From Gemmatimonadota bacterium (GTDB lineage Bacteria; Gemmatimonadota; Gemmatimonadetes; Palauibacterales; Palauibacteraceae): DNA of 64,000 nucleotides. The stretch lies in assembly GCA_039585235.1 (NCBI GenBank), contig JBDGWG010000001.1, forward strand, positions 1,022 through 65,021, written 5' to 3'. Of this stretch, positions 840-17,287 are shown one piece after another. The first letter of the stretch is position 1. The number at the start of each line of letters is the position of its first letter. Position numbers and translations under genes: made by a program. The notes beneath the pieces were generated by a model. The model did no database searches, was not told where the DNA came from, and was given only the letters and a program-made list of their open reading frames with translations.

Positions 840-1937
840 CTACTGGATCGGATTCGCCGTGTATCCCATCACGGTCAGGATGATGATGTAGGCGATCATC
901 GCCAGAGCGATCACGGTCATCAGTCGACTGGCTTCTCCGGGGGCTCTCCTCCTGTCCAGGAAAGGCACGAGCAACAGGAACAGTCCTGCGAGAGCAAAGG
1001 CCATCACGCCCAACATCTCGCCTTCGAGTCCGAGGATGTGCGAAGGAAGCAGCTTGAGCGTGTGGAACATGTACATGAAGTACCACTCGGGCTTGATCCC
1101 GATCGGCGCCGGCGCGAAGGGGTCGGCCTTCTCCCCCAGGTGCGCGGGGAAGAACGCCGCGAGCGCGCCGAGGACCGCCAGGGCGACCAGCCAACCGACG
1201 GCGTCCCGCATGAGGAAACTGGGGACGAACTTCATGGCGCCGCGTTTCGATCCATCCCTCTCGACGTCCGGCGGCACGCTCATGCCGTGTCGTTGGACCA
1301 GGAAGAGGTGCAGCCCGACGAACAGAATGATAACGGCCGGGAGGAGTGCCACGTGGATAGCGTAGAATCGGGTCAGGGTCGCGCCGGTGACGTCCGTGCC
1401 TCCACGTGCCAGGTCCCGCACGAAGCTACCGATCAACGGGACCACTCCCACGATCTCCGTACCCACCTTGGTCGCGAAGTATGCGAGTTCGTTCCACGGA
1501 AGGAGGTAACCCGTGAATCCGAAGGCGAGAGTGAGCACGAACAGGATCACCCCGGTGATCCACGTCAGGTCTCTGGGAGCCCGGTACGCTTTCAGAAGAA
1601 ACACGCTGAACATGTGGATGAGCACGGTGAACACCATCAGGTTCGCCGCCCACGCGTGAATCGACCGGATCAGCCACCCGAACTGTACTTCGGCCATGAG
1701 GAACTGAACGGACTCGTAGGCCTCCTCGGCACTGGGTCTGTAGTAGAAGAGAAGAAGGACGCCCGTGCTCAACTGGATCAGGAAGAGGAAGAGGGTCATG
1801 CCTCCCAGGTAGTACCAGATCGTGTGCCGGTGCAGCGGCACATCCTTCTTTCGGGCCATTTCCGACAGGGGCGCGAGCCCGATACGATCGTCGAGCCAGT
1901 TTCCGAGCTTCTCGTACCAGCGGCTCTTCCCGGTCAT
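840..1937 (-). CDS. petB: Cytochrome b (bc1/b6f-type, full-length ~8 TM)
   Basis: 365 aa with multiple TM helices, conserved His pairs ([19 protein letters not shown]; [16 protein letters not shown]) and the PEWY motif (KPEWYF) typical of cytochrome b. Its start overlaps the stop of the upstream Rieske gene at 1937. Confidence 0.9.
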
Positions 1938-2389
1938 CAGGTCCTCTTGCTCACGACGATCTCGTCACCCCGGACATTGACGTCGAATGCGTCGAGCGGC
2001 CGCGGAGGAGGACCCTGAATGTTGCGTCCCGTCAGATCGAAATGGCCGTTGTGGCACGCGCACCAGATGTGCGAGATGTCGTCACGGAACTGCACGGTGC
2101 AGTCCAGGTGGGTGCACACGGCGGAGAACGCGCGCAACTCACCGGACTCGGTGCGCACCAGGATGCCGGGCTTGTTGCCGAAGCGGAACGCCTTCGCCGA
2201 GTTGAGACCGATCTCGTCCGGGCCGAACGGGAGAGCGACGCTCGAGGCGGACGACTCTCCCGCCTCGGGCGGGATGAGGTAGCGCGTCACGGGATACAGC
2301 ATGGCCACCGCGAAACTCCCGGCGCTGGTTCCCAGCAGCCAGTTCACGAAGGCCCGGCGCGACGACTTTGGCGAATCCGTCCCGGCCAT
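1937..2389 (-). CDS. petA: Rieske [2Fe-2S] iron-sulfur protein with Tat signal
   Basis: Canonical box I CTHLDC and box II CACHNGH. N-terminus [20 protein letters not shown] is a twin-arginine signal/TM anchor. The upstream 144 aa of the listed ORF is R/G-rich low complexity, so the start is taken at the internal ATG, giving about 150 aa. Confidence 0.85.
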
Positions 2390-2421
2390 GCGATTTCTCC
2401 CGTCTGACTCAGGCTCGCGGC

Positions 2422-3675
2422 TCACGTCGGTCGCTCGATTTCCCGGATCTTGAGCACCAGGCCTACGATCAGTGCTCCGATTATGATCACCGACACCGCG
2501 AGGCCCATACGGCGAATCTGAAGATCCCGGAGAGCCTCGTGCCCGCTGGCCAGGGCCTCCCCCGATATCTCCATTCCCGGCTCCACTGCCTCCCGCACGG
2601 CCTCCACGTCGAAGGCGTGGATCGCCGCCCTCGATTTCACCAGCGCGCTCTGCCCGTCGTTGAGGCTGACCAGTGCCTCGCTCACTTCCATGCCCGAATC
2701 CTCGGCATGGAGCAACACGGCGCGAGCCGTGTCGAGTCCCACCCTCAAGCCATCGATCAGGTTGCGCATCTCGAGTGCCACCGTGCCCCCGGCATCCGCC
2801 TCGCGGTGGCACTTCGAGCACACGGAGGCCTCCCCGACGCCCAGCATCTCGTCTCCCGCCGGCTCCACGTCATGGTTCTGGTGGCAAACGGCGCAGCCGG
2901 GCACCCCCAGCATGGTGAAGGTCTCCGAGTGGTGGCTCTCCTCGAAGTAGTCGGCCATTACGACGTGACACTGCCCGCACACGTTGCCGACCCAGGAAAC
3001 CCCGGGCGGCGCCGCGCCGTGATTCCCGTGGCAGTCGTTGCACGTGGGCGCGGACGTGTCACCCCCCTCACTCATCGTCTCCCAGTGGACGCTGCGTCGG
3101 TATTCCGCGCCCTGGTCCGTCGGGATGCCGTAGGGCTCCATGTGAGCCGGGTCCGAGTGACAGCCCTCGCACGTGTCCGCCACGTTGAGCGGGTGGACCG
3201 CGGAACGGGGGTCCGAGGCCGGACGGATGCCGTGCGCCCCGTGGCAGCTGGCGCACGTGGCGACGGCCGTATCGGCCGCGCCGAGCAGTCGCTGCCCGTG
3301 AACGGATGTGACGTACTCCGCCACCTGGTCGACCCGGAGCGCCGGGTCGTATTGCCGCATGAAACCGGCATTCGAGTGACAGCGGCCGCAAACATCCGGT
3401 ACCTGTTCGGGCGAGGGCCGGCCGATATAGCCCTTCGCCAAGTCCATGGCGGCCGGACCCTGGACGGTGGGGTCACCACCGTGGCAAGCCGCACACCCGA
3501 ATCCCGCCTCCGCGTGCACGTCTTCAGCGAAGGCCGCTGCGGGCTCGCCCAGTCGGCCGGAGAGCATCTCGTGACACGAAATGCAACTGTCCGTTCCCTC
3601 CTGGGCTGCCGAGTGATCCGGCGAGGCCAGAATCGCCACCATCACCAAGGCGATCGCGCCGCTGCGTAGGTTCAT
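2422..3675 (-). CDS. Nonaheme c-type cytochrome with signal peptide and C-terminal TM anchor
   Basis: Nine CXXCH motifs (CISCH, CAACH, CGRCH, CASCH, CEGCH, CNDCH, CGQCH, CAVCH, CSKCH). N-terminal signal AILASPDHSAAQ and C-terminal helix GLAVSVIIIGALIVGLVL. Sits directly upstream of the Rieske/cytochrome b genes, in the position of cytochrome c1. Confidence 0.85.
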   Translation of the reverse strand: MNLRSGAIALVMVAILASPDHSAAQEGTDSCISCHEMLSGRLGEPAAAFAEDVHAEAGFGCAACHGGDPTVQGPAAMDLAKGYIGRPSPEQVPDVCGRCHSNAGFMRQYDPALRVDQVAEYVTSVHGQRLLGAADTAVATCASCHGAHGIRPASDPRSAVHPLNVADTCEGCHSDPAHMEPYGIPTDQGAEYRRSVHWETMSEGGDTSAPTCNDCHGNHGAAPPGVSWVGNVCGQCHVVMADYFEESHHSETFTMLGVPGCAVCHQNHDVEPAGDEMLGVGEASVCSKCHREADAGGTVALEMRNLIDGLRVGLDTARAVLLHAEDSGMEVSEALVSLNDGQSALVKSRAAIHAFDVEAVREAVEPGMEISGEALASGHEALRDLQIRRMGLAVSVIIIGALIVGLVLKIREIERPT

Positions 3676-4889
3676 GGAGCGCTCGCTTGGAAGAAAGCCA
3701 TGAGATCTCCTATCTCACGACCGGTGAACGAAGGCCATTCAGCGCCAGATCTCTCTTCAGCCTCGAACAGGGCGAGGTGGTTCCACAGGGCGGCCGTAAT
3801 GGACGACGGATGATCCAGGCCCGGGATCGACGTCAGTTCGCCCGGGCCGTGGCAGTCCGTGCAACCCTTGCTGTCCATCAGGGTCCGGCCCCTGCTCGCT
3901 CGACCGCCGGCTGAGAAATAGTCCACGGAATACAGATAGGCGACGATGTTGGCGAAGTCCTGCGCCTCCAGGCGGGGGAACTCCAGGTCTCTCGCCCGCA
4001 GGGCCCCCACCATGGCCGGCGCCTTGTTCCACATCAGGGCCACGAATTCGACCAGGCTTGTGCCCCGGCTCAACCCCGCCAGATCGCGCGCGACACGTCC
4101 TCCCGCACCGGGGTCCCCATGGCACTCGGCGCATCTCTTATCCTCGACCACCCGCACCCCCGCGTCGGCATCACCGGGAAGGACGTAGAGGTTCTCGCCC
4201 GGGGTCTCACCGGTCGTGGATCTGAGAAAGGCGATCAGGTCAGTCAGGTCGTGACTGCTCATCACGGGTCGTGAGATGCCTCTGACCTCCGCTGCTTCGA
4301 TCATCGCCGGACCGTGGTTCCACATGGCGGCAGCGATCTCGATCGGCACGCCCCGCGCGCCGACGTGATCCAGAACAGGCCCCACGACTCCACCGACGCC
4401 TCGGACCTGGTGACACAGGATGCAGTTCATCTCGGTGAAGCGACGCTTTCCTCGTTCCGGATCCCCCGGAGTGTCGAAATACCCCAGCGTGTAGAGGTAC
4501 GCGAACAGATCGCCGGCCTCGCGCTCACTCAGGTGGGGTCTCTCGATTCCGAGCTCCGCCATGTGCCGGTTCATGTCCGGCAGGTGGTTCCACAGGGCCG
4601 CGGTGAGTTCCTGGAAGGTCCGGGGGGAGGCGATCGTCCGCAGGTCGGGCCCCAGAGACTGGCCGCTGCCGCTGACCGAGTGGCAGCGGATGCACCCCTT
4701 CTCCCCGAACACTTCGGCACCGGCCACGGCGTTCTGAGTAGGCGCGGGCAGGTCCTGGGCCACCAGAAAGCGCGCGCCCGGCACGGAGCCGGCCGCGAGG
4801 GCCAGAACGACATGCAACAATCGCCATGAGGATCGCGTTGCGCTGTGCACTGTGTCCTGTCTGCGACGATTGTGAGCGTTGCAGGCCAA
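3672..4889 (-). CDS. Four-domain class I cytochrome c (4 x monoheme domains)
   Basis: Four ~95-aa repeats, each with one CXXCH (CIRCH, CILCH, CAECH, CTDCH) followed by a conserved (M/L)WNH/K..P motif, plus an N-terminal signal. Stop/start overlaps the downstream gene by 4 nt. Confidence 0.8.
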   Translation of the reverse strand: MACNAHNRRRQDTVHSATRSSWRLLHVVLALAAGSVPGARFLVAQDLPAPTQNAVAGAEVFGEKGCIRCHSVSGSGQSLGPDLRTIASPRTFQELTAALWNHLPDMNRHMAELGIERPHLSEREAGDLFAYLYTLGYFDTPGDPERGKRRFTEMNCILCHQVRGVGGVVGPVLDHVGARGVPIEIAAAMWNHGPAMIEAAEVRGISRPVMSSHDLTDLIAFLRSTTGETPGENLYVLPGDADAGVRVVEDKRCAECHGDPGAGGRVARDLAGLSRGTSLVEFVALMWNKAPAMVGALRARDLEFPRLEAQDFANIVAYLYSVDYFSAGGRASRGRTLMDSKGCTDCHGPGELTSIPGLDHPSSITAALWNHLALFEAEERSGAEWPSFTGREIGDLMAFFQASAP

Positions 4890-4984: not shown

Positions 4985-5932
4985 TCAGTATCCGGTGTGG
5001 CAGATAGCGCACGACTGAGTGCTGCGGTCGGCGGCCCGCTCGGGATCGAAGTCCGGTCCGTGCGGATTCACGCGCCAGCCGGCCTTGGCCGAGTGACAGG
5101 CCAGACACTCGGTCTGCTGGTGGCAGGTAGTACAACTCTCCATGCCCTGCCGCGCCGCCACACCGTGCTGTTGAAGCCAGTTCGCTACGCCGTCGTGGTA
5201 CCCCCCGTTCTGGCGCCCGTTCTGCGCGACGCCCTGCGTGGAGTGGCAATCACGGCAGAAGACCTCCCGCGAGTGGCATTCGGCGCACTCCATCGGAGCG
5301 GCCCACGATTCCGCGCTGTGCCGCGTGACGAAGTTCGCCGGATGGTATTGAAAGTCAGAGTTCTTCGGTCCATCGTGACAGTCGACGCAGAACGTCTCCT
5401 TGTGGCATTGCGTGCAATTCGGGAGTCCCGCCGCTGCCGCGGTCGCGTGCTGCGTCTTGAAGTCGGGCGTATGTCCGGGCCCCGGATCGTAGTGACAGGT
5501 CTCGCACGGGTTGATTCCGACCTCGAAGTGGTCGGTCGCGCCGTTACCGTGACAGGCAAGGCATGTGTCACCCGAGGCTGCCTGGACGGCCATATCGCTT
5601 TCCGCCTCAGGGACGCCGTGACAGGTCTGGCACCCGAGCTTGGGGTGCGTGGCATGCTCGAACTTCAGGCCGCTTTCCTGTGGAGTGTATCCCTCCCAGT
5701 CCACCTCGACGACCATCTGACCGTTGTGACAGCCGGCGCACAGCGCCGGGTCCGCCGACACGTTCTGTGCCGCGTCTCCAGAGTAGATGCCCGCGTGGCA
5801 GCTCTCGCACCCGGCAGCTCCAAGCACCGCGTGCTTCTCGTGCGGAAACTCGAACGCTAAATGGGAGGCCGCGAGCAGCGCTCCGGCGCCGACCGTGAGA
5901 ACGAGGGCGCTCAGATAAGCGAGCCGCCTCAT
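4985..5932 (-). CDS. Dodecaheme periplasmic c-type cytochrome (MtrA/OmaB-like heme density)
   Basis: Twelve CXXCH in 315 aa (~26 aa per heme), with a signal peptide (MRRLAYLSALVLTVGAGALLAAS) and no lipobox. Its ATG overlaps the stop of the upstream beta-barrel gene at 5929-5932 (ATGA-type overlap). Confidence 0.85.
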   Translation of the reverse strand: MRRLAYLSALVLTVGAGALLAASHLAFEFPHEKHAVLGAAGCESCHAGIYSGDAAQNVSADPALCAGCHNGQMVVEVDWEGYTPQESGLKFEHATHPKLGCQTCHGVPEAESDMAVQAASGDTCLACHGNGATDHFEVGINPCETCHYDPGPGHTPDFKTQHATAAAAGLPNCTQCHKETFCVDCHDGPKNSDFQYHPANFVTRHSAESWAAPMECAECHSREVFCRDCHSTQGVAQNGRQNGGYHDGVANWLQQHGVAARQGMESCTTCHQQTECLACHSAKAGWRVNPHGPDFDPERAADRSTQSCAICHTGY

Positions 5933-7383
5933 CGGGTACCTCCAGTGTTGAAGCGCCAGCGCAGGCCGACCGTGGCGCGTCCTTCGCTCCAGGTGTCGGC
6001 AAGCGGCCGGTTCTTGTCTTCGATGCGGTAGAAGCCGAGGCTAGCGTCCAGCGTGAGATTCGCCTTGGCGATGTCATAAGCGCCCTCGACCGCGCCGCCC
6101 GTCACATAGCGCTCACCCTCGCGGAACTCGTACAGGGTCTCGGTCGAGGTTCCCCGAAGCGCCACATAGGAGGCGCCGGTCGGTCCGAGATAGCGCCCGA
6201 AGATCAGGTCGCCGCCGTATCGCGAGCCTCCGAATCCTTCTTCGGCCCTGTAGCGCGCGTCCACGTACCACTTGTCCGGGCTCCAGTAGACGCGACCGAA
6301 CCCACGCCAGCCGTCCTTCTTGACGGTCGTGTTGGCTGGACCCGCATTCGTGTCCTCGTACTCGCGGTACGCTCCGCCCGCTTCCACGAGGAGGGGCAGG
6401 TTTCTCGAAGTCCATGTCCCTGAAAGGCGCGCCTCGTTGAACCCGATGGGTGAGAATGCGCTCCAGATGGTCCAGTAATCGAAGAACGGAGTGTAATGAC
6501 GGCCCTGGGCGGCGAACCGGATTCCGAGGACCTGAGGAGTCGTGATTCGAAGCCGCGCGTCATTGATGTTGTCGAACGCGAAGTCGTAGCTCGCGGCGCC
6601 GTCGAACGCCCAGCCACCGACGAGCGCCCGCAGATCGACTGCGGCTCTCTCCGTATACAGGGCCAGGCGGTCCGTGCGAAGTTCCCTCTGGTAGGTCGCT
6701 GATCCCGAAAACACTTTTCCGCCGCGGAAGCCGAGCTCTCCTCCGAACAGCAGGCCGCGCCGGTCGGTGGCCAGGAGGTCCGACTCCGTGTACAGGCTGC
6801 CGTTGCGGGGAGCGTTAACGCCGCGGGCCAGGCTCCAACCGCCATATGCGTCAACCCACAACCAGCCGAGCCCGCGCCAGATGATCGACGCGCCGTCGAA
6901 GTTGTAGTAGCCGAGGCCTGAGGCCCGGTACATCCGTCCGGCTTTCACCTGGTAGGCTGCCCGATTGAAGCTCAGGTAGCCGGTCAGCAGGTCGAATTCC
7001 TGGTCCGTGCGTGGCCACAGCTCGTCGCTCCCGAAGCGCGTGCGCATCTGTCCGTGGAATGACAGGCCCTGCACCCCTGTCCAGCCGGCGAATCGCAGGT
7101 CCTGCGTGAACGGCATGATGTCCTGGCGCTGGCCTTTGTTCTCGTACCAGCGGCAGAAGTCGCCTTCGACGCACGATACTACCGTCCCGTCCGCGAGCTG
7201 GCGCTGGAGACCCGATCCAGAGACGTCTCCCTCGGGAACCGAATCCTGCTCGAACGGCTGGAGCTGCATCCAGCCCCAGTTGAGTCTGACGTCGCCGCGC
7301 ACGCCCTGGGCCTGGGCCTCTGACGGCAGCCACACCACGGCGCACGCGACTAACAAGAAGAACGGCCGGCGATGGACAGTCAT
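5929..7383 (-). CDS. Outer-membrane beta-barrel protein (putative porin partner of multiheme cytochrome)
   Basis: 484 aa with a signal peptide (FFLLVACAVVWLPSEAQAQG). Composition is Gly/Tyr/Trp/Arg-rich with alternating amphipathic strand patterns (YRASGLGYYNFDGASIIWRGLGWLWVDAYGGW) and no hydrophobic helices. Translationally coupled to the dodecaheme cytochrome. Confidence 0.6.
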   Translation of the reverse strand: MTVHRRPFFLLVACAVVWLPSEAQAQGVRGDVRLNWGWMQLQPFEQDSVPEGDVSGSGLQRQLADGTVVSCVEGDFCRWYENKGQRQDIMPFTQDLRFAGWTGVQGLSFHGQMRTRFGSDELWPRTDQEFDLLTGYLSFNRAAYQVKAGRMYRASGLGYYNFDGASIIWRGLGWLWVDAYGGWSLARGVNAPRNGSLYTESDLLATDRRGLLFGGELGFRGGKVFSGSATYQRELRTDRLALYTERAAVDLRALVGGWAFDGAASYDFAFDNINDARLRITTPQVLGIRFAAQGRHYTPFFDYWTIWSAFSPIGFNEARLSGTWTSRNLPLLVEAGGAYREYEDTNAGPANTTVKKDGWRGFGRVYWSPDKWYVDARYRAEEGFGGSRYGGDLIFGRYLGPTGASYVALRGTSTETLYEFREGERYVTGGAVEGAYDIAKANLTLDASLGFYRIEDKNRPLADTWSEGRATVGLRWRFNTGGTR

Positions 7384-7530: not shown

Positions 7531-10425
7531 CTAGCGGTAGCCGATTAACGCCGAGTAGACGATGTGGAGAACCAGGAATATTCCGATCCCGAGCATCGTG
7601 AACCCCACGACCCCGAAGATCAACTCCACTCGGCGTGGGTACGGTGGCACGAGGCGCTCTTCGAACTCTCCTGAAGCCACCATGCGTTCGTATTCCCTCG
7701 GCTTGTCCCTCTTCAGCTCCTCCACGGGTACGCGCCCCGTGAAGATCACCGGATCCATAGGGAACTTGTCGAGCCGGAAGTGAGTGTTGAAGAAGTGGAT
7801 CGTGAAGATGAACGCCACGGCCAGCAGCGCCTCATCGCTGTGGATGATGGTCGCCACATTCACCAGCCAACCCGGCAGGATGATCGTGAACAGCTCGGGG
7901 AACCAGAGCAGAAGGCCCGTGGAGCCAATCACGAACATCCCCCAGAACACGGCGAAGTAGTCGAACTTCTCCCAATAGGTGTATCGTCCGTAGTCCGGCC
8001 GGGGTCCCCAGCCCATGAACCACCTCACGGAGGCCCTAAACTCCCGGACGTCCGTCTTGTTGAACACGAGCGAGTCGCGCGACGTGATGAACTGGAGCCA
8101 CGTCTGACCGGCGCGGATTCTCTGCTTGCGCGCGTCGAACAGATGGACGAAGAACACCGAGAACAGCGCGATGGCGCCGATCCTGTGCCACACCCCCATG
8201 GCCTCGTAGCCGCCGAGCAGCCAGGCGAGCGTCTGGGCCCATCCCATATACGAGAACTTCAGGGCCATGCCCGTCAGGGCGAGGAGCATGAAGCTGACCA
8301 TCATGACGCCGTGCATCGATCTCTGGAACTTCGTGAAGCGTCGGTACTGCAGCGGTGGATCCGCTCCTTCCTCTGCCGCCACCGGCTCGTGTTTCCAGTC
8401 CTCCGGCGATCGCCACAGGCGCCACAGCCAGGCGAAGGTGTGAATACTGGCGAAGGTCAGAGTCCCGATCAGAAGGCTCGCCATGAACCAGAAGGTCCAG
8501 AACAGCCAGGGGTATTGCTCCGGGTCGTGGTGCGTTGCGTGCGTCAGATACCCCGTGAAACGCCGGTTCGCCCCCGGATGGCACTGAGCGCATGTCTCGA
8601 CGATGTTCCGGCGACTGAGGGTCGACGCCGGTTCCGTCGTGGGGAGGACGTTGTGCGTGCCGTGGCAATCGTAGCACTTGGCCGCGGTGGCCGCCCCGGC
8701 TCTGGACACCTTCCCGTGGTACGTATCGAAGAAGGTCTCTGATTCGTCCTCGTGGCACCTTCCACACTGGCTCATCATCAGCATGCGAAAGTCGTCGCGA
8801 TCCGTACGGCTGATCGTGTGCGACGTGTGGCAATCCTCGCACGTCGGGTAGTTGTGATCCCCCCCTCCGTTGGCGAAGTCGCCGTCTTCGGGCCAGTGCA
8901 CGCTTTCGCGGAACTGCTCTTCGATCCCGTGGTGACACTCGCCGCACGTCCCGGCGACGTTGTTCGGATTGATCGTAGAGGCGGCTTCCCCGGCGGGCAG
9001 CTCCGTGTGCGCCCCGTGACAGTCGGTGCAGGTCGCCGTGACTACGAGTCCGCTCTGGAGCAGTCCCTTGCCGTGGATGCTCATCTCGTAGCCCTGGACG
9101 ATATCGGCTCCGGTGCGCTCAATCCGCCGCGCCGCCGGTTCTCCCGCCATATGGCACCGGGAGCACAGGTCCGGAACGTTGCGCGGATAGATCGGCGAGG
9201 ATGGATTCGTTTGCTCGAACTCCGCGTGGCGCTCGTGGCAGTCGCCGCACGTGGGCGCGTCTGCGTCGCCTTGAGCCGCCAGCGTTCCGTGCATGCTGGA
9301 GCCGAATTCCTCTATCTGCACCGGGTGGCAGATGGCACAGTCAACCTCGGGCTCGATCGCCTCACACGGCCGTTCCTCGTAGATCGGTGTCACGTCGACG
9401 TGACACTGGGAGCACCCCGTCTCGGCATGCCCGGACTCGGCCCTCACCGACTGGTCTACGAAGAGGGATCGCTGCACCCCCCCCTCCTCTTCGACCACCA
9501 ACTCGGGGTCTCCGTGGCATTCCAGGCAGTCCTGTGTCGCGACCCCGGCGTCGTAGAACACGCGGCGGATCTTGTGCGGTTGATGGCAATCCACGCAGGG
9601 CGGGATTTTGTGCGGCTCTTCCTCCCACAGGCGTCCCTCGATGGCCTGCAGGTGAACCTCCTCGATCCTGCCGTGGCACTGCATGCACGTTCCGGCCACG
9701 TTCTCGGCGTGGATGCTGGATCGGTCGTCGGTGTGGGGAAGGATGAAGTGCGATGTGTGACAGGACGTGCAGACGGCCGTGACCGTCAGTCCCTGCTGGA
9801 ACAGTCCCGCCCCATGAATGGAAAGAGAGTAGTTCTCCAGGATCCGGTCCTGGGGGATGTCGAGTCTCTCCGACACCTCCGTACCTTCCTGGTGGCACTC
9901 GCCGCACAGGAAGGGGATGTTCATCACCGACGTGGACGAGGCCGGATCGCGGGAGGAGCGTACGTCATGTGTGCCGTGGCAGGTCGCACACGAGGGCGCG
10001 AGCGGGTCGCGCCGCGCGGCTGCCTGCCCGTGCAGGGACTGGTTGTGTTCAGCCCGCTGCGTGCCATGACACCGACCGCAGGTCGCGGGCGCCCGGTCTT
10101 CCGGGTGCGGGAACGTGAGGCCCTCGTGACAGTCCACACACCGCAGGCGGCCGTGGATCGAAGCGTCCAGCGTCTCACGTGTGACCACGAATCGGTCGCC
10201 GTCATCCCGGCTTTCCCAGAAAGCAGGGTTCGCGTGGCACATGAGGCAGTCGACTTCCTGTGCCTCCACTCGGTCCGGGAGGAGAGCGACCAGCCCGATC
10301 GCCAGGGCGATCCCGATCGTGCCTCGATATGCGGTCAGAGTCCGCAAGTCCATCGGATCTCCGGATATGTGGTATGTGTGAGTTCGTTTCCTTGGCCCGG
10401 ACACACCGCGACGCTCGACCGGCAA
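7531..10425 (-). CDS. Fusion protein: ~19-heme c-type cytochrome domain + C-terminal dihaem cytochrome b (HydC/FdnI-like) membrane domain
   Basis: About 19 CXXCH in the first ~630 aa. The C-terminal ~330 aa has 4-5 TM helices with conserved His (WHRIGAIALFSVFFVHLF; IIHSDEALLAVAFIFTIHFF), typical of membrane cytochrome b of the formate dehydrogenase/hydrogenase gamma family. The start may be the internal ATG at 10353 (MDLRTLTAYRGTIGIALAIGLVALL). Confidence 0.85.
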   Translation of the reverse strand: MPVERRGVSGPRKRTHTYHISGDPMDLRTLTAYRGTIGIALAIGLVALLPDRVEAQEVDCLMCHANPAFWESRDDGDRFVVTRETLDASIHGRLRCVDCHEGLTFPHPEDRAPATCGRCHGTQRAEHNQSLHGQAAARRDPLAPSCATCHGTHDVRSSRDPASSTSVMNIPFLCGECHQEGTEVSERLDIPQDRILENYSLSIHGAGLFQQGLTVTAVCTSCHTSHFILPHTDDRSSIHAENVAGTCMQCHGRIEEVHLQAIEGRLWEEEPHKIPPCVDCHQPHKIRRVFYDAGVATQDCLECHGDPELVVEEEGGVQRSLFVDQSVRAESGHAETGCSQCHVDVTPIYEERPCEAIEPEVDCAICHPVQIEEFGSSMHGTLAAQGDADAPTCGDCHERHAEFEQTNPSSPIYPRNVPDLCSRCHMAGEPAARRIERTGADIVQGYEMSIHGKGLLQSGLVVTATCTDCHGAHTELPAGEAASTINPNNVAGTCGECHHGIEEQFRESVHWPEDGDFANGGGDHNYPTCEDCHTSHTISRTDRDDFRMLMMSQCGRCHEDESETFFDTYHGKVSRAGAATAAKCYDCHGTHNVLPTTEPASTLSRRNIVETCAQCHPGANRRFTGYLTHATHHDPEQYPWLFWTFWFMASLLIGTLTFASIHTFAWLWRLWRSPEDWKHEPVAAEEGADPPLQYRRFTKFQRSMHGVMMVSFMLLALTGMALKFSYMGWAQTLAWLLGGYEAMGVWHRIGAIALFSVFFVHLFDARKQRIRAGQTWLQFITSRDSLVFNKTDVREFRASVRWFMGWGPRPDYGRYTYWEKFDYFAVFWGMFVIGSTGLLLWFPELFTIILPGWLVNVATIIHSDEALLAVAFIFTIHFFNTHFRLDKFPMDPVIFTGRVPVEELKRDKPREYERMVASGEFEERLVPPYPRRVELIFGVVGFTMLGIGIFLVLHIVYSALIGYR

Positions 10426-10462
10426 GTGCGTCCGCCTCCTTCACTGCAAGAAGCGGACACAA

Positions 10463-10502
10463 GTGTATCTTTCTATAAAATGTTGGTATGATAGCAAGTT
10501 AC
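10463..10502 (-). promoter_or_regulatory. AT-rich island in the 115-bp gap upstream of the 964-aa cytochrome gene; candidate promoter
   Basis: gtgtatctttctataaaatgttggtatgatagcaagttac is ~75% AT in an otherwise ~70% GC context. Contains TATGAT/TATAAA-like hexamers and lies in the only sizeable intergenic gap (10426-10540) inside the cytochrome array. Confidence 0.35.
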
Positions 10503-10540
10503 GACGGAGGACCCGGAGTCGAGTCCTCCGCCACGATGGG

Positions 10541-12520
10541 TCAAGATGTCACATGTTCGGTGGGTGCGTCCGCTTCCCCGGACTCGGTCGCCACTTTGTC
10601 TTCGTGCCCTGAAAGGCCGTTCTGCGCGTCATCACCGCCCGCGAGCTCCTCGTCATACCAGCGGCCGTGCACCGCCCTGGCCTCATGCTCGGGCATCTTC
10701 CCCGTCAGCCAGATCCAGCTCATCGGATAGACCTCGGGGTGGAACAGCACGAAGAAGAAGTGCCACACCACGATGGCCAGCGTGGCCAGCCAAGCCTCAT
10801 AGAAGTGGATGGTTTCAGAAATGGACACGATCCACGTGGGGAACAGCCCGGTGGCCCAGGAGGGGAACCACAGGACCACACCGGTGAGCGCCATGAGAAC
10901 CGTACCCCACACCAGCGCCCAGTACTCCGCCTTCTGGGTGTAATCGTACCGTCCGAATCGAGCCCGATGCGGGGAGCGCCACGTGTAGAAGCGCATGTTG
11001 TCGACGAATTCCTTCGCGTCCCTGACGTTAGGCGTCATCGCCTGGAACTCTTCCCTGCCGCGTTTCATGAACATGATGTACAGAACGTGGACGATCCCGA
11101 ATAAGATCAACCCGACGCCCAGCACGCGGTGCAGGGTCGATCGCACGGGTTCCGCCAGATAGGCGAGGCCCGTCACTCGCGCCCAGCCAGCTTCCGGGTA
11201 CCGGAGGGCGAATCCTGTGACGACCAGCAGGATGAAGGATGTGGCCAGCATGGCGTGCTGCGCGATCTGGATCCGGTCGAAGCGCAGGAAGCCTCGCTCG
11301 GCTCCATCCCGCCGCCGCTTCTCGACCATGTAGTAATTGAAAATGATCGCGTTGTGGATCGCCATTCCTCCGATGACGACCGCAATCAACGCGATATAGA
11401 TCGCGCGCACGATCCGCCGGCCCTTGTTCGTCGCGATCGAGGCTGCCCGATGGTCCCCTTCGTGACATTGCCGGCACGTGGCCACCACGTTGCCTTCCGC
11501 GACCGACGACTCCGGGTCGTCTGCCGGGAGCACGAAGTGGGTCGTGTGGCAGCTCACGCACGTGGCCGAGGTCTGACTGGCCCGCCGAGTCGCCCACCCG
11601 TGGTAGCTGTCGCTGTAGGAGAGGACAACCTCCTCCTGCAGACTGTACTTGGTGATGATCACGGGGTCGTTATGGCAATCGCCGCACAGCTGGGCAGCAA
11701 GATGCCCGGAGTGCGTACCGGCGTCGGGGTTGGCCGGATGCAGAATGAGGTGCTCGCCGTGACAGTCCGTGCACGTGGGGCTGTCGCTCACGCCCGCCGC
11801 CACCGCCCTGCCGTGGATCGAGCGGTCGTAGATCTCCGTGATGTTCCCGTGACACGCCCCGCACGTCGCCGACACGTTCCGCCGGTTGATCCTGGACTCG
11901 GGGTCTGAGTGACCCCTGAGATCGTGGACGCCATGACAGTCCGTGCAAGTGGCGGCCTCCGAGGGGCCGTTTCCATTCGCGGTCCCGTGCACGGAGCGGG
12001 CGTACTGCAGAGCCGGCGCCGGCAACTTCAGGTACTGATCGGTCAGCAGGCCACCCGTGCTGTGACACTCCGTGCACGTCTCGGCCACCCGCGCGTGGTA
12101 CGTGTGCGACTCCGGGTCGGTGCTCCGACGAATGTCGTGCGCCCCGTGGCAACCGGCACACGTCGGAGCCCGCGGGTTGCCGCGCTCCAGTGCGTACCCG
12201 TGCACGCTACCGGAATACTCTCGGCCTTCCCCGCCGTGGCACCCGCCGCAGCGAACCGGGGTGTACTCCTCGGGGTGGGGGTAGTTGAAGGCCTGGTGAC
12301 AGGTGATACAGGACATTCCGAAGCCGCCGTGCACCGAGCCGGCGAACTCTTCCTGCGTGACGACGAGGCGGGCGGAGTCTGCCCGTCCGGCGAAGTTGGC
12401 GGTATCTCCGTGGCAGGCGAGACAGAAACGGTTCTCCTGCGCGGAGAGACTGGTGGCGAATATGGCAACGCCAAGACCGGCCACCAGAATACGGGCTGGA
12501 TGGGGCCAATGGCTCAACAT
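10541..12520 (-). CDS. Fusion protein: 11-heme c-type cytochrome domain + C-terminal dihaem cytochrome b membrane domain (CbcL-like architecture)
   Basis: Signal peptide, eleven CXXCH in the N-terminal ~350 aa, then a ~300-aa polytopic domain with conserved His in TM helices (IAQHAMLATSFILLVVTGFAL; LHRVLGVGLILFGIVHVLYIMF; ETIHFYEAWLATLAIVVWHFFF). A paralogous architecture to 7531-10425. Confidence 0.85.
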   Translation of the reverse strand: MLSHWPHPARILVAGLGVAIFATSLSAQENRFCLACHGDTANFAGRADSARLVVTQEEFAGSVHGGFGMSCITCHQAFNYPHPEEYTPVRCGGCHGGEGREYSGSVHGYALERGNPRAPTCAGCHGAHDIRRSTDPESHTYHARVAETCTECHSTGGLLTDQYLKLPAPALQYARSVHGTANGNGPSEAATCTDCHGVHDLRGHSDPESRINRRNVSATCGACHGNITEIYDRSIHGRAVAAGVSDSPTCTDCHGEHLILHPANPDAGTHSGHLAAQLCGDCHNDPVIITKYSLQEEVVLSYSDSYHGWATRRASQTSATCVSCHTTHFVLPADDPESSVAEGNVVATCRQCHEGDHRAASIATNKGRRIVRAIYIALIAVVIGGMAIHNAIIFNYYMVEKRRRDGAERGFLRFDRIQIAQHAMLATSFILLVVTGFALRYPEAGWARVTGLAYLAEPVRSTLHRVLGVGLILFGIVHVLYIMFMKRGREEFQAMTPNVRDAKEFVDNMRFYTWRSPHRARFGRYDYTQKAEYWALVWGTVLMALTGVVLWFPSWATGLFPTWIVSISETIHFYEAWLATLAIVVWHFFFVLFHPEVYPMSWIWLTGKMPEHEARAVHGRWYDEELAGGDDAQNGLSGHEDKVATESGEADAPTEHVTS

Positions 12521-14703: not shown

Positions 14704-16016
14704 CCTGCCACCCGGCTCGGATCCGAGCCCGGTTCGGTGCCCCGGAGACGCCACAGCCGGGAGCCGGCCAATACGATCGTGGCGAGCGCCAGGAACCACA
14801 CGGGGATGAGGAAGAGCTTGTGCTCCCAGCGCTCCTCGGCACTCACCTCGGCCTCCGCGACGATGTCACGCGAGATGGAGCCGACGACTCGCTCGAGGTC
14901 CTCGAGCCGCTCCAGATCCAGCGCGTGCTGCGCCGACGCCAGCTGCCGGTATTGAGTGAGGGCCGTGCGATAACGGAACCGCGTATCGCTGACCTCGTGC
15001 CCGGCCCGCACCAGCTCGTGGATCGCCTCCGCGGCCGCATCCATCTCCCGCTCGGCGCGCACGAGGATCTTCTCGATTTCCTCGCCCAGCACGGCGGGCG
15101 CGCTCGCCGGGGCGTGGCAGCCGGTGCACGTCGTGGCCACCAGATCCGGTGGGATTCGCTCCGTAAGGTGACTGCTGTGGCACGCCGTGCAGCCGAGAAG
15201 GACCCCCTCGGCCGTGGCCCTTCCGTGTGGCCCTTCATCGAGGGCCTTTCTCGTTCCGACGTGACACCGGCCGCACACGTTCGAGATCTCGCTCACATTC
15301 GGGGGCAGGGCCGCGTGAGACCCGTGGCACCCGATGCAGCTCGGCGCCGCGAAATTCAGATCCTCGAACAGGGCTGCGCCGTGCGCGCTCCGTCGGTGGC
15401 TGCGGACCTGATCCGTGGGGATGCCGTACGGTTCCATCAAGGCGTCGTCCTCGTGGCATACGGCGCACAAGGTCGGGATATTCAGAGGGTACGCACTGCT
15501 GCGAGCGTCGTCCGCTCGAAGCGTGGTGTGCGGATCGTGGCAGTCAGAGCACGTGGGGGCGTCCTCACTGCCTCGTTCCAGGAGGAGCATGCCATGTCGG
15601 CTGGTGCGCAGCTCGGCGATCTGGTCTGCGGGAAGACCGTACTGACGCATCGCGTCGGGATCAGCGTGACAGCTGGAGCACACCTCGACCGTAGCCAGCT
15701 TGCCCAGAGACCCGCGGAAGTCACCGCCGTGCGCCCCGGGAATCTCGAACGAGTCCGGGTCTCCTCCGTGACAGTCGTGGCACCGGACGTTTCTGTCGGA
15801 GTGCACTCCGAGCAGATACGCCCTCCTCTTGTCCGCGTGACAGATGAGGCAGCCGTACTGCGGGTCGATCCCGCCGGCTTCCTGCGGGACGGCCTCGCCA
15901 GAAACGACGTGCGCGCTGACGGACGCCTCTACCATGGGTGCGCGATCGAAGCCGGTAGCCGAAAAGATGCCTGCCATGACGAGGACAAAGCCGGCCTTCT
16001 TGAGCGTCGCGCTCAT
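14700..16016 (-). CDS. Nonaheme c-type cytochrome with C-terminal TM anchor (paralog of 2422-3675)
   Basis: Nine CXXCH (CLICH, CHDCH, CSSCH, CSDCH, CAVCH, CIGCH, CGRCH, CTACH, CTGCH). C-terminal helix LFLIPVWFLALATIVLAG. Blocks are collinear with the 417-aa nonaheme protein (e.g. EPYGIPTDQ conserved in both). Start overlaps the stop of the cytochrome b gene (16013-16016). Confidence 0.85.
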   Translation of the reverse strand: MSATLKKAGFVLVMAGIFSATGFDRAPMVEASVSAHVVSGEAVPQEAGGIDPQYGCLICHADKRRAYLLGVHSDRNVRCHDCHGGDPDSFEIPGAHGGDFRGSLGKLATVEVCSSCHADPDAMRQYGLPADQIAELRTSRHGMLLLERGSEDAPTCSDCHDPHTTLRADDARSSAYPLNIPTLCAVCHEDDALMEPYGIPTDQVRSHRRSAHGAALFEDLNFAAPSCIGCHGSHAALPPNVSEISNVCGRCHVGTRKALDEGPHGRATAEGVLLGCTACHSSHLTERIPPDLVATTCTGCHAPASAPAVLGEEIEKILVRAEREMDAAAEAIHELVRAGHEVSDTRFRYRTALTQYRQLASAQHALDLERLEDLERVVGSISRDIVAEAEVSAEERWEHKLFLIPVWFLALATIVLAGSRLWRLRGTEPGSDPSRVAG

Positions 16017-17278: not shown

Positions 17279-17287
17279 GTCCTTACC

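What the first reader, a model, noticed from the sequence alone, without database searches (positions are those of the whole stretch)
840..3675. bc-type complex in which cytochrome c1 is replaced by a C-terminally anchored nonaheme cytochrome
Established knowledge: canonical bc1 has Rieske, cytochrome b and monoheme c1, while b6f has cytochrome f. Seen here: gene order nonaheme cytochrome (signal peptide plus one C-terminal TM), Rieske with a Tat signal, then full-length cytochrome b with overlapping stop/start. A second copy of the same triad (14700-17740) has a collinear nonaheme paralog. Inference: these are two paralogous 'Rieske/cyt b + multiheme' complexes that feed multiheme wires rather than a soluble monoheme carrier.
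Basis: partly seen in the sequence, partly recalled or inferred. Interest (0 to 1): 0.55.

Follow-up and report, generated by a model that had tools for sequence, protein, structure and literature searches.

The report
Rieske/cytochrome b complex with nonaheme subunit
This is a real and very widespread but uncharacterised respiratory "complex III" variant in which a membrane-anchored nine-heme cytochrome sits where cytochrome c1 or f normally would; the supposed second copy nearby has lost its iron-sulfur cluster and quinol-oxidation motif.

Summary
The first triad is real. On the minus strand lie a 9-heme cytochrome (2422-3675; signal peptide, conserved C-terminal anchor), a Tat-exported Rieske protein with intact cluster ligands (1937-2389), and a 7-helix cytochrome b (840-1937; b6 fused to subunit IV, PEWY present).

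The order nonaheme-Rieske-cytochrome b recurs in 71/71 and 59/60 informative loci. These come from Gemmatimonadota, Methylomirabilota/NC10, Rokubacteria, Binatia, "Deltaproteobacteria", Acidobacteriota and Chloroflexota. A four-heme class-I cytochrome c usually lies just upstream (59/72). The family exceeds 7,000 protein clusters and 587 species genomes, all uncultured among the best matches listed.

Rieske/cytochrome b complexes with multiheme subunits are already known (Geobacter Cbc6/Ext cluster, anammox). The nonaheme does not match the NCBIfam ExtN model, Pfam gave it no c1 or f match, and no paper searched describes it. I rate it a new variant of a known kind.

The "second triad" is not a plain copy. 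Its gene order differs, its Rieske-fold protein has lost all four cluster ligands and the Tat motif, and its cytochrome b has LVSTW in place of PEWY. These changes are conserved across its orthologs.

Complex formation and electron path are inferred, not shown.

The parts
3672..4820 (-). Four-heme class-I cytochrome c ('c4x'). Secreted, with four tandem domains of about 90 aa, each carrying CxxCH and a WNHxPxM motif. First gene of the conserved four-gene module.
   Evidence: Has 4 CxxCH motifs. Pfam Cytochrom_C E 4e-30 with 3 stretches. The public gene call is 382 aa; the open reading frame extends to 4889. Its stop overlaps the nonaheme start by 4 nt. Present directly upstream of the nonaheme in 59/72 informative loci. 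Weak NCBIfam hits to SoxX, ExtS, CcoP and QcrC.
2422..3675 (-). Nonaheme c-type cytochrome, 417 aa. Signal peptide, nine-heme periplasmic domain, three long helices (295-414), the last of which forms the C-terminal membrane anchor. Proposed counterpart of cytochrome c1/f.
   Evidence: Has 9 CxxCH motifs and a hydrophobic helix at 390-408. Nine motifs plus H54, H126, H148, H197, H219, H249, H268, H353 and M179 are invariant in 63 homologs. AlphaFold2 model has pLDDT 88. The membrane anchor is the most conserved segment, 0.82 against 0.75 for the heme domain. More than 7,188 homologous clusters and at least 587 species genomes.
1937..2389 (-). Rieske [2Fe-2S] protein, 150 aa, Tat-exported with an N-terminal membrane anchor.
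   Evidence: Pfam Rieske (E 1e-12) plus TM_PetC (E 1.5e-11). Twin-arginine motif SRRAFV; CTHLDC at residue 92 and CACH at 110. Best NCBIfam match is the b6f iron-sulfur subunit (81 bits, below cutoff). Follows the nonaheme in 71/71 loci.
840..1937 (-). Cytochrome b, 365 aa. A fusion of b6 and subunit IV with about seven helices, two b-heme ligand pairs and a PEWY Qo motif. No heme-ci cysteine.
   Evidence: Pfam PF00033 E 6e-54 and PF00032 E 1.6e-11. H94/H108 (Hx13H), H195/H210 (Hx14H), PEWY at 283, and YLGG where b6 has CxGG. The N-terminal half matches cytochrome b6 best in the PDB (E 4e-63). Start shares one base with the Rieske stop. Present in 59/60 loci.
17288..17740 (-). Cluster-less Rieske-fold protein ('pseudo-Rieske'), 150 aa, with an N-terminal membrane helix. 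First gene of the core trio of module 2.
   Evidence: Box I CTHLDC is replaced by SPVDGC and box II CACH by SPCGH. Only the two disulfide cysteines (C98, C113) are invariant, and there is no twin-arginine motif. AlphaFold2 pLDDT 84. Best PDB match is the Chlorobaculum Rieske domain 8hn2, E 5e-8. Small family: 77 clusters at 90% identity, and about 17 representatives at 50% identity ahead of the first ligand-bearing Rieske.
16013..17278 (-). Cytochrome b paralog, 421 aa. Heme ligands retained, Qo motif lost.
   Evidence: 36% identical to cytochrome b 1. H117/H131 and H218/H233 are kept. PEWY is replaced by LVSTW, which is conserved in 12 orthologs. Pfam finds only the N-terminal domain.
14700..16016 (-). 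Nonaheme paralog, 438 aa, with signal peptide and C-terminal anchor. Third gene of the core trio of module 2.
   Evidence: Has 9 CxxCH motifs and a hydrophobic helix at 401-419. 34% identical and collinear to the nonaheme of module 1. Follows cytochrome b 2 in the orthologous loci.
18522..20006 (-). Eight-heme cytochrome, 494 aa, with an N-terminal hydrophobic segment ending ...LAGGC. Lies upstream of the pseudo-Rieske gene.
   Evidence: Has 8 CxxCH motifs and Pfam multiheme families. The order mh494, pseudo-Rieske, cytochrome b 2 recurs in Gemmatimonadota loci.
12736..14799 (-). NapC/NirT-like membrane-anchored cytochrome with 21 CxxCH motifs, downstream of nonaheme 2.
   Evidence: Pfam Cytochrom_NNT at residues 43-137. 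Has 21 CxxCH motifs and one N-terminal hydrophobic helix. NCBIfam NrfH E 1.6e-12.
4985..7383 (-). Accessory pair upstream of module 1. A 484-aa secreted protein with no family match (putative outer-membrane barrel, not verified) and a 12-heme periplasmic cytochrome (4985-5932), with overlapping stop and start.
   Evidence: No Pfam, NCBIfam or PDB sequence match for the 484-aa protein. The 315-aa protein has 12 CxxCH motifs. The 484-aa gene lies upstream of the nonaheme in 19/56 informative loci, always followed by the 12-heme gene in the loci listed, and all but one (the Akkermansiaceae-labelled L003) are labelled Gemmatimonadota or unclassified.
7531..12520 (-). Two CbcL-like fusions of a multiheme c domain to a FdnI/HydC-type cytochrome b (7531-10425 with 19 CxxCH; 10541-12520 with 11 CxxCH).
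   Evidence: Pfam Ni_hydr_CYTB plus multiheme families. NCBIfam formate dehydrogenase gamma subunit. The heme domain of the 659-aa protein is 31% identical to the nonaheme (E 4e-24).

Best explanation
Module 1 (four-heme class-I cytochrome c, nonaheme, Rieske, cytochrome b) most likely encodes a quinol-oxidising Rieske/cytochrome b complex of the b6-like lineage. Its third redox subunit is the nonaheme cytochrome.

The nonaheme has the topology of cytochrome c1 and f: a cleaved signal peptide, a periplasmic heme domain and a single C-terminal membrane helix.

Proposed path:
1. Quinol, probably menaquinol, is oxidised at a PEWY-type Qo site.
2. One electron goes to the b hemes and one to the Rieske cluster.
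3. The Rieske head passes its electron to a membrane-proximal heme of the nonaheme.
4. The nine-heme chain (about eight bis-His hemes and one possible His/Met heme) carries it to the secreted four-heme class-I cytochrome.
5. From there it reaches terminal reductases or oxidases. In this genome, further candidates are the surrounding multiheme proteins and a putative outer-membrane protein.

Shown by sequence: all cofactor ligands, the export signals, the topology, the operon structure and the cross-phylum synteny.

Inferred: physical assembly, which heme accepts from the Rieske cluster, the redox potentials and the direction of flow.

Module 2 is a derived paralog. It keeps the cytochrome b hemes, a Rieske-fold protein and a nonaheme, but it has lost the [2Fe-2S] ligands and the PEWY motif. 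It therefore cannot use the canonical bifurcating mechanism.
For: - Cofactor and topology features are listed.
- Nine CxxCH motifs, eight extra histidines and M179 are invariant in 63 homologs.
- The membrane anchor is the most conserved part of the nonaheme (0.82 against 0.41 for the signal peptide and 0.75 for the heme domain). This suggests specific helix packing rather than a mere tether.
- Coding regions overlap or are tightly spaced.
- The order nonaheme, Rieske, cytochrome b holds in 71/71 and 59/60 informative loci from Gemmatimonadota, NC10/Methylomirabilota, Rokubacteria, Binatia, Deltaproteobacteria/Syntrophobacteraceae, Acidobacteriota and Chloroflexota.
- The class-I tetraheme lies upstream in 59/72 loci, and a natural fusion joins a nonaheme to two such domains.
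- No Pfam c1 or f match among the proteins scanned, and no CxxCH-containing ORF in the window outside the first 20 kb.
- Precedents: Geobacter Cbc6/Ext (10-heme ExtN, Rieske ExtO, cytochrome b ExtP, ExtQ, with 4-heme ExtS). Anammox complexes have a hexa- or octaheme c in place of cytochrome f, and in the authors' AlphaFold models its membrane helix takes the same position in both complexes.
- Box II of the Rieske protein reads CACHNGHF. It lacks the Ser and Tyr hydrogen-bond donors that raise Rieske potential (the effect is described in PMC12954380). This fits a low-potential, menaquinol-type enzyme, but is an inference.
Against: - There is no biochemical, expression or co-purification evidence. 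All the best-matching carriers listed are uncultured.
- The related Chlorobi-type Rieske/cytochrome b complex works without any bound c subunit (my own knowledge). The nonaheme could therefore be a tethered acceptor rather than a subunit.
- The class-I tetraheme, not the nonaheme, could be the direct Rieske partner.
- A nonaheme paralog occurs beside a 4Fe-4S/NrfD-type module, which shows the protein family is modular.
- Fold comparison gives only weak matches, the best to HAO and NrfA enzymes.
- A c1 gene or an alternative complex III elsewhere in the genome could not be excluded.
Confidence: 0.65

Rival explanations
1. The Rieske/cytochrome b pair is a complete two-subunit enzyme without a c1 equivalent, as in green sulfur bacteria. 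The nonaheme is then a separate, membrane-tethered periplasmic electron hub that is merely co-expressed. It would collect electrons from this and other quinol oxidases, such as NrfD-type or CbcL-type modules.
For: The cluster-less paralog of the Rieske protein matches the Chlorobaculum Rieske structure best. Literature places the M. oxyfera cytochrome b with Chlorobi and Chloracidobacterium. A nonaheme paralog fused to class-I domains sits next to a 4Fe-4S/NrfD module rather than a Rieske/cytochrome b pair. The nonaheme heme domain is homologous to the heme domain of CbcL-like quinol oxidases in the same island.
Against: Adjacency to the Rieske gene is strict (71/71) and coding regions overlap. 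The membrane anchor is more conserved than the heme domain, which would be unexpected for a free tether. The contig carrying the fused paralog also carries a standard nonaheme-Rieske-cytochrome b operon.
Confidence: 0.2
2. The nonaheme is a catalytic multiheme enzyme of the NrfA/HAO/OcwA superfamily, for example a reductase of a nitrogen or sulfur oxyanion or of a metal. It would be wired directly to the Rieske/cytochrome b complex, like the HAO-like Kuste4574 of anammox bacteria. The class-I tetraheme would then be the true c1 equivalent.
For: The best, though weak, fold matches are Kuenenia HAO 4n4j (TM 0.43, E 0.065) and NrfA. The only PDB sequence match below E 0.001 is the nonaheme OcwA, 6i5b (E 1e-5). 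C-terminal long helices are also typical of that superfamily (my own knowledge).
Against: All nine motifs are CxxCH, with no CxxCK. Eight invariant histidines plus invariant M179 and near-invariant M106 provide a candidate sixth ligand for every heme. The fold matches are not significant (none at E <= 0.001). The class-I tetraheme is absent from 13 of 72 loci, while the nonaheme is the fixed partner.
Confidence: 0.07
3. The complex has the same architecture but normally runs in the opposite or a branched direction. Electrons taken up from outside the cell, for example from Fe(II) through the putative barrel and the 12-heme cytochrome, would enter the multiheme and class-I cytochromes. Part would flow downhill to an oxidase, and part would be pushed uphill through the Rieske/cytochrome b complex to reduce quinone.
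For: In this genome the module lies inside an island with 104 CxxCH motifs. The island includes a putative outer-membrane protein paired with a 12-heme cytochrome. The operon also contains class-I cytochrome domains of the kind usually high-potential. Reverse operation of bc1 in iron oxidisers is established knowledge.
Against: The barrel and 12-heme pair is present in only 19/56 loci, so it is accessory. The barrel assignment is unverified. The Rieske sequence suggests a low-potential centre (inference). There are no physiological data.
Confidence: 0.12

Closest known systems
Geobacter sulfurreducens Cbc6 / ExtHIJKLMNOPQS cluster (GSU2930-2940)
   Same: The gene logic matches: multiheme c (10-heme ExtN, about 47 kDa), then Rieske (ExtO), then b6-like cytochrome b (ExtP) and a subunit-IV-like protein (ExtQ). 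The cluster also holds a 12-heme cytochrome (ExtM), a 4-heme cytochrome (ExtS) and a porin-like protein (ExtI). Here the counterparts are a 484-aa secreted protein, a 12-heme, a 4-heme, a 9-heme, Rieske and cytochrome b. Cytochrome b scores 226 bits on the ExtP model.
   Different: The nonaheme does not match the ExtN model (12 bits, cutoff 200). Cytochrome b is below the ExtP cutoff (290) and is fused to the subunit-IV part. The 4-heme protein here is a four-domain class-I cytochrome placed first rather than last. No rhodanese or selenoprotein gene is present. The taxonomic range is quite different and much wider. The Geobacter complex is itself biochemically uncharacterised.
Anammox Rieske/cytochrome b complexes (Kuenenia Kuste4569-4574, Kustd1480-1485)
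   Same: These are b6-type Rieske/cytochrome b cores in which a membrane-anchored hexa- or octaheme c replaces cytochrome f. In the published AlphaFold models, one such subunit has long helices that wrap around the complex. The nonaheme likewise has three long C-terminal helices.
   Different: The anammox complexes have split b6 and subunit IV, a heme cn, an NAD(P) oxidoreductase module and high-potential Rieske proteins that keep the serine hydrogen-bond donor. Here cytochrome b is fused, there is no heme-ci cysteine, no NAD(P) module is encoded nearby, and the Rieske protein lacks both the Ser and the Tyr.
Canonical cytochrome bc1 and b6f complexes
   Same: The Rieske protein has full ligands, a Tat signal and a membrane anchor. 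Cytochrome b has four heme-ligand histidines and PEWY. The third subunit has the c1/f topology of a signal peptide plus a C-terminal anchor.
   Different: There is no monoheme c1 and no cytochrome f. Cytochrome b has about seven helices with b6-type Hx14H spacing but is unsplit and lacks heme ci. The c subunit carries nine hemes.
Geobacter CbcL and CbcBA (bc-type menaquinol oxidases)
   Same: In both, a multiheme c domain is joined to a dihaem b-type quinol oxidase. CbcL has nine c hemes, and CbcA is anchored by a C-terminal helix. The nonaheme heme domain is homologous to that of the CbcL-like proteins in this window (E 4e-24).
   Different: CbcL and CbcB use FdnI/HydC-type or thiosulfate-reductase-like b subunits and have no Rieske protein. 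Module 1 uses a true Rieske/cytochrome b6-type core. Module 2 resembles them functionally, since it has no working Rieske cluster, but it keeps a b6-type cytochrome b and a vestigial Rieske fold.
Subfamily G / clade G' of cytochrome b (Dibrova et al. 2017, PMC5600118)
   Same: [quoted passage not shown] It uses M. oxyfera DAMO_0768 as a subfamily-G query. NC10/Methylomirabilota genomes carry the operon studied here.
   Different: Identity with that clade could not be checked, because the reference sequence was not retrievable. The paper states that it did not analyse the electron acceptors of the new subfamilies.

Membership tests
Rieske/cytochrome b complex superfamily (module 1) | Cytochrome b with two histidine pairs ligating hemes bL and bH | tested here: met
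   H94/H108 and H195/H210. Pfam PF00033 E 6e-54.
Rieske/cytochrome b complex superfamily (module 1) | Qo-site motif (PEWY or a variant) in the subunit-IV part of cytochrome b | tested here: met
   PEWY at residue 283, conserved in the orthologs aligned.
Rieske/cytochrome b complex superfamily (module 1) | Rieske protein with CxH...CxxH ligands, a disulfide pair, a Tat signal and an N-terminal anchor | tested here: met
   CTHLDC and CACH motifs, SRRAFV, Pfam Rieske plus TM_PetC.
Rieske/cytochrome b complex superfamily (module 1) | Physical assembly of the subunits and Q-cycle turnover | not testable with these tools
   Only synteny (71/71 and 59/60) and overlapping coding regions are available.
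Rieske/cytochrome b complex superfamily (module 2, 14700-17740) | Rieske [2Fe-2S] ligands | tested here: not met
   All four ligands are replaced in the window protein, in 11 locus orthologs and in 26 database homologs. Only the two disulfide cysteines are invariant. The Rieske fold is retained.
Rieske/cytochrome b complex superfamily (module 2, 14700-17740) | Qo motif | tested here: not met
   LVSTW replaces PEWY and is conserved in 12 orthologs. The heme-ligand histidines are kept.
Canonical cytochrome bc1 | Monoheme cytochrome c1 subunit | tested here: not met
   No Pfam c1 match among the c-type proteins scanned. All CxxCH-containing ORFs lie in 1-20 kb, and the operon's c-type proteins carry 4 and 9 hemes. 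The rest of the genome was not searched.
Canonical cytochrome bc1 | Eight-helix cytochrome b with Hx13H in helix D | tested here: not met
   About seven hydrophobic helices, and Hx14H (b6-type) in helix D.
Cytochrome b6f | Split b6 and subunit IV, heme ci bound by a CxGG cysteine, and cytochrome f | tested here: not met
   A single 365-aa fusion, YLGG where b6 has CxGG, and no cytochrome f match. NCBIfam b6 score is 249 bits, below the cutoff of 325.
Geobacter ExtN (NF040967) / ExtP (NF040969) equivalogs | Score above the curated NCBIfam cutoff | tested here: not met
   Nonaheme against ExtN: 12.2 bits, cutoff 200. Cytochrome b against ExtP: 226 bits, cutoff 290.
NrfA/HAO/OcwA catalytic multiheme enzymes | A five-coordinate or specially ligated catalytic heme (CxxCK, a Tyr cross-link or a missing distal ligand), plus significant fold similarity | tested here: inconclusive
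   No CxxCK motif. Candidate distal ligands exist for all nine hemes. Foldseek gives at best E 0.05-0.07 and TM 0.43. OcwA phmmer E is 1e-5. Heme coordination cannot be read from sequence.

The most novel reading that the evidence does not exclude
Module 2 (pseudo-Rieske 17288-17740, cytochrome b 16013-17278, nonaheme 14700-16016) could be a previously undescribed type of membrane complex. It would be a Rieske/cytochrome b6-type scaffold that has discarded the iron-sulfur cluster and the PEWY Qo site, while keeping the Rieske fold as a structural subunit. It would couple its two b hemes directly to a nine-heme cytochrome. That would make it a non-bifurcating quinol:multiheme oxidoreductase or a transmembrane electron conduit. 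It would also be an evolutionary intermediate between Rieske/cytochrome b complexes and Rieske-less Cbc-type oxidases.
Probability: 0.45. Interest if true: 0.7.

Novelty: new variant of a known kind. Interest (0 to 1): 0.55.

Why it matters
If the nonaheme really is the third subunit, then several abundant lineages run their quinol:acceptor step through a complex that no one has purified. These lineages are mostly uncultured soil, sediment and groundwater bacteria: Gemmatimonadota, Rokubacteria, NC10, Binatia, Vicinamibacterales and others.

The output of that complex would be a nine-heme wire rather than a single c1 heme. This changes how their respiratory chains should be annotated. Automated pipelines call the protein a 'cytochrome c3 family protein', 'predicted CXXCH cytochrome family protein' or 'hypothetical protein'.

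It also adds a widespread case to the evolutionary argument that early bc complexes used multiheme acceptors.

The cluster-less derivative offers a natural experiment on what a cytochrome b6 scaffold can do without the Rieske centre.

Tried and rejected
1. ExtN orthology. The NCBIfam ExtN model scores the nonaheme at only 12 bits, so orthology to the Geobacter subunit is rejected. The resemblance is architectural.

2. Apparent counter-example. The fused nonaheme P0252 lies next to an NrfD/4Fe-4S module. Extending the locus showed a standard class-I cytochrome, nonaheme, Rieske, cytochrome b operon on the same contig, with the public gene call truncated. It is a second paralog, not an exception to the synteny.

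3. Co-evolution test. I correlated percent identities of nonaheme against cytochrome b and Rieske across loci. The correlation is driven only by close relatives (r about 0.1-0.2 below 65% identity) and is uninformative.

4. The 484-aa putative barrel. The barrel assignment stays unverified.

5. Cultured carriers. None appeared among the best 120 hits of two searches or the 80 best genome loci.

6. Literature. Searches for a nine-heme cytochrome with Rieske, for a cluster-less Rieske protein in a cytochrome b complex, and for a cryo-EM structure of such a complex found nothing specific. Dibrova et al. 2013 (PMC3839093) is not held.

7. Cytochrome b phylogeny against reference clades.

Full report
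**What is in the sequence.** All genes of the finding lie on the minus strand.

- The 417-aa protein at 2422-3675 has nine CxxCH motifs, an N-terminal signal peptide and one C-terminal hydrophobic helix at residues 390-408.
- The Rieske gene starts at the ATG at 2389, preceded by GGGAGA, and gives a 150-aa protein. It has an SRRAFV twin-arginine motif, the Pfam PetC membrane anchor, a Rieske domain, and intact CTHLDC and CACH boxes.
- Its TGA stop shares one base with the ATG of the 365-aa cytochrome b at 840-1937.
- That cytochrome b matches Pfam Cytochrome_B (E 6e-54) and Cytochrom_B_C (E 1.6e-11). It has about seven hydrophobic helices by my reading of the hydropathy output, heme-ligand pairs H94/H108 and H195/H210, and PEWY at residue 283.
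- Helix D has the b6-type Hx14H spacing, and YLGG stands where b6 has the heme-ci motif CxGG. The N-terminal half is closest to cytochrome b6 in the PDB (E 4e-63), and full-length matches to bc1 cytochromes b are weaker.
- So 'full-length cytochrome b' is really an unsplit fusion of b6 and subunit IV without heme ci.

Immediately upstream, overlapping the nonaheme start by 4 nt, is a secreted four-domain class-I cytochrome c (3672-4820; four CxxCH).

**Is the association real?** The nonaheme family is very large. More than 7,188 protein clusters score E <= 1e-5 among the 8,000 candidates examined.

In an alignment of 63 members, the nine heme motifs are invariant. So are eight further histidines (H54, H126, H148, H197, H219, H249, H268, H353) and M179. 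This is enough to give every heme a sixth ligand.

I scanned the 80 best genome loci by tblastn with the window's proteins:

| Feature | Loci with it / loci where the contig is long enough |
|---|---|
| Rieske gene after the nonaheme | 71 / 71 |
| Cytochrome b after that | 59 / 60 |
| Class-I tetraheme upstream | 59 / 72 |

The loci come from Gemmatimonadota (the majority), NC10/Methylomirabilota, Rokubacteria, Binatia, Deltaproteobacteria/Syntrophobacteraceae, Acidobacteriota/Vicinamibacterales and Chloroflexota.

The membrane anchor is the most conserved segment of the nonaheme. Its mean majority-residue fraction is 0.82, against 0.75 for the heme domain and 0.41 for the signal peptide. I read this as a sign of specific helix packing in a complex.

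Pfam gave no cytochrome c1 or f match for the c-type proteins scanned. Every CxxCH-containing ORF of the window lies in its first 20 kb.

A natural fusion protein also exists (P0252, 622 aa). It consists of a nonaheme, a second hydrophobic segment and two class-I domains of the same WNHxPxM type. This supports a functional link between the nonaheme and the class-I cytochrome.

**Structure.** AlphaFold2 on the 63-sequence alignment gives a confident model (pLDDT 88, pTM 0.77). It has a mostly helical heme domain followed by three long helices (295-326, 332-354, 357-414), the last of which runs into the membrane.

Foldseek against the PDB finds nothing significant. The best matches are Kuenenia HAO (TM 0.43, E 0.065) and NrfA. 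By sequence, the only PDB match below E 0.001 is the nonaheme OcwA (E 1e-5).

Within the window, the heme domain is clearly homologous to that of a CbcL-like fusion protein (31% identity, E 4e-24). The nonaheme is therefore built from the same two-heme repeat modules as those quinol oxidases.

**Most likely mechanism.** Module 1 is a quinol-oxidising Rieske/cytochrome b complex. Its c1/f position is taken by the nonaheme, which has the same topology.

The proposed electron path is quinol, then the Rieske cluster, then the nine-heme chain, then the class-I tetraheme, then terminal acceptors.

Box II of the Rieske protein reads CACHNGHF in the window and the nine orthologs aligned. It lacks both the Ser and the Tyr whose hydrogen bonds raise the Rieske potential by about 130 and 65 mV (as summarised in PMC12954380). 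I therefore predict a low-potential, menaquinol-type centre. This is inference only.

Assembly, the accepting heme, the potentials and the direction of flow are all inferred.

**Comparison with what is known.** Rieske/cytochrome b cores with multiheme c subunits are established in the literature.

- The Geobacter Cbc6/ExtHIJKLMNOPQS cluster encodes porin-like ExtI, 12-heme ExtM, 10-heme ExtN, Rieske ExtO, cytochrome b ExtP, membrane protein ExtQ and 4-heme ExtS.
- The gene content here is strikingly parallel: a 484-aa secreted protein, a 12-heme, a 4-heme, a 9-heme, Rieske, and a fused cytochrome b.
- However, the nonaheme scores only 12 bits on the ExtN model (cutoff 200), and cytochrome b stays below the ExtP cutoff (226 against 290). 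The resemblance is one of architecture, not orthology.
- Anammox bacteria have b6-type complexes with a hexa- or octaheme c in place of cytochrome f. One of these has long wrapping helices in the published AlphaFold models.
- Dibrova et al. 2017 mention a clade G' of long cytochromes b 'in large conserved operons ... of an unknown function', and use an M. oxyfera protein as a subfamily-G query.
- Kao and Hunte place the M. oxyfera cytochrome b with Chlorobi, with a PEWY motif.
- Whether those are the same clade as the one here could not be checked.
- No paper in the searchable library links a nine-heme cytochrome to a Rieske protein or reports a structure of such a complex.

**The second 'triad'.** The paralogy is real: nonaheme 34% identity (E 3e-56), cytochrome b 36%, and Rieske-like 20%. 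The unit is nevertheless different.

- Gene order is an 8-heme cytochrome, the Rieske-like protein, cytochrome b 2, nonaheme 2, then a 21-heme NapC/NirT-like protein.
- In the Rieske-like protein (150 aa, 17288-17740), box I is SPVDGC and box II is SPCGH. There is no twin-arginine motif.
- The same losses occur in 11 orthologs from Gemmatimonadota loci and in 26 database homologs. Only the two cysteines that correspond to the Rieske disulfide are invariant.
- Its predicted structure is still a Rieske fold on a membrane helix (pLDDT 84). The best PDB match is the Chlorobaculum Rieske domain (E 5e-8).
- A profile search of 1.84 billion representatives shows a small family. About 17 top representatives (E <= 1e-21) precede the first ligand-bearing Rieske at E about 1e-19. 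None of them shows the full ligand pattern, though several are short fragments. True Rieske proteins dominate from there on.
- Cytochrome b 2 and its 12 orthologs keep all four heme histidines but have LVSTW where PEWY should be.
- Module 2 therefore cannot perform Rieske-dependent bifurcated quinol oxidation.
- It may work like the Rieske-less Cbc oxidases of Geobacter, which pair a b-type dihaem subunit with an anchored multiheme c. It would do so on a b6 scaffold that retains a vestigial Rieske subunit. I found no description of such a thing.

**Context.** The first 20 kb of the window hold 104 CxxCH motifs. They include two CbcL-like fusions with 19 and 11 motifs. Module 1 is preceded by the 484-aa secreted protein with no family match, paired with the 12-heme cytochrome. 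That gene lies upstream of the nonaheme in only 19/56 loci, so it is accessory.

The rest of the window is housekeeping genes plus CcmF.

The window matches, at 99-100% protein identity, a JGI metagenome contig (3300041087) that carries an identical nonaheme gene. The nearest named relative is a Gemmatimonadetes MAG at 87% identity.

**Verdict.**
The nonaheme is the conserved c-type partner, but the concept has precedents, the operon also encodes a class-I tetraheme, and the second copy is a degenerate derivative.
- Novelty: a new variant of a known kind.
- Interest: moderate (0.55). It is raised by the breadth of distribution and by the cluster-less paralog, and limited by the lack of any experimental evidence and by the existing precedents.

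Noticed in passing
window 17288-17740 (-): This Rieske-fold membrane protein has lost all four [2Fe-2S] ligands and its Tat motif but keeps the two disulfide cysteines. The loss is conserved in every homolog examined. The family is small and, where hits are named, Gemmatimonadota.
   Followed up: yes
window 16013-17278 (-): This cytochrome b paralog keeps both heme-ligand pairs, but the Qo motif PEWY is replaced by a conserved LVSTW. It also has a long acidic, proline-rich C-terminal tail.
   Followed up: partly
window 7531-10425 and 10541-12520 (-): Two CbcL-like fusions join a multiheme c domain (19 and 11 CxxCH motifs) to a FdnI/HydC-type cytochrome b. The public gene call for the first is shorter (797 aa), but the 964-aa frame is conserved at 87% identity in locus L002.
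   Followed up: partly
window 4985-7383 (-): A 484-aa secreted protein has no match in Pfam, NCBIfam or the PDB. Its stop overlaps the start of a 12-heme cytochrome. The arrangement looks like a porin-cytochrome pair, but the barrel fold was not verified. The 484-aa gene is present in 19/56 related loci.
   Followed up: partly
window 1-20078 against 20079-64000: All 104 CxxCH motifs of the window, in ten ORFs, lie in the first 20 kb and none in the remaining 44 kb. A System-I maturation gene, ccmF, lies at 47005-49035.
   Followed up: partly
L083 10001-11869 (protein P0252): This is a natural fusion of a nonaheme, a second hydrophobic segment and two class-I cytochrome c domains. It is encoded next to a multiheme/4Fe-4S/NrfD/Fer4_5 module. 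The same contig also carries a standard nonaheme-Rieske-cytochrome b operon, in which the public gene call for the nonaheme is truncated to 239 aa.
   Followed up: yes
proteins P0286, P0287: These distant cluster-less Rieske-fold relatives carry an N-terminal CxxC...CxxC zinc-ribbon-like segment before the membrane helix. Other representatives (P0312, P0322, P0328, P0343) have CSY/CTY/CTL/CTF in place of CTH, so one cluster histidine is missing.
   Followed up: no
loci L002-L081: Identity to the window's operon is about the same for NC10, Rokubacteria, Binatia and 'Deltaproteobacteria' (nonaheme 53-61%, cytochrome b 64-72%) as for most other Gemmatimonadota. This hints at horizontal spread of the module. 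L003 is labelled Akkermansiaceae but is 81% identical, so it is probably a mis-binned contig.
   Followed up: no
window 18522-20006 (-): Residues 75-188 of this 8-heme protein match the C-terminal part of the NCBIfam 'UshA-like (seleno)protein' model (E 7e-18, far below cutoff). This adds a further parallel with selenoprotein-containing multiheme clusters such as the Geobacter Ext cluster.
   Followed up: no
window 17998-18384 (+): A small 4-heme c7/c3-like periplasmic cytochrome (128 aa) is encoded on the opposite strand between the 8-heme gene and the pseudo-Rieske gene. Homologs recur near the operon in several loci.
   Followed up: no
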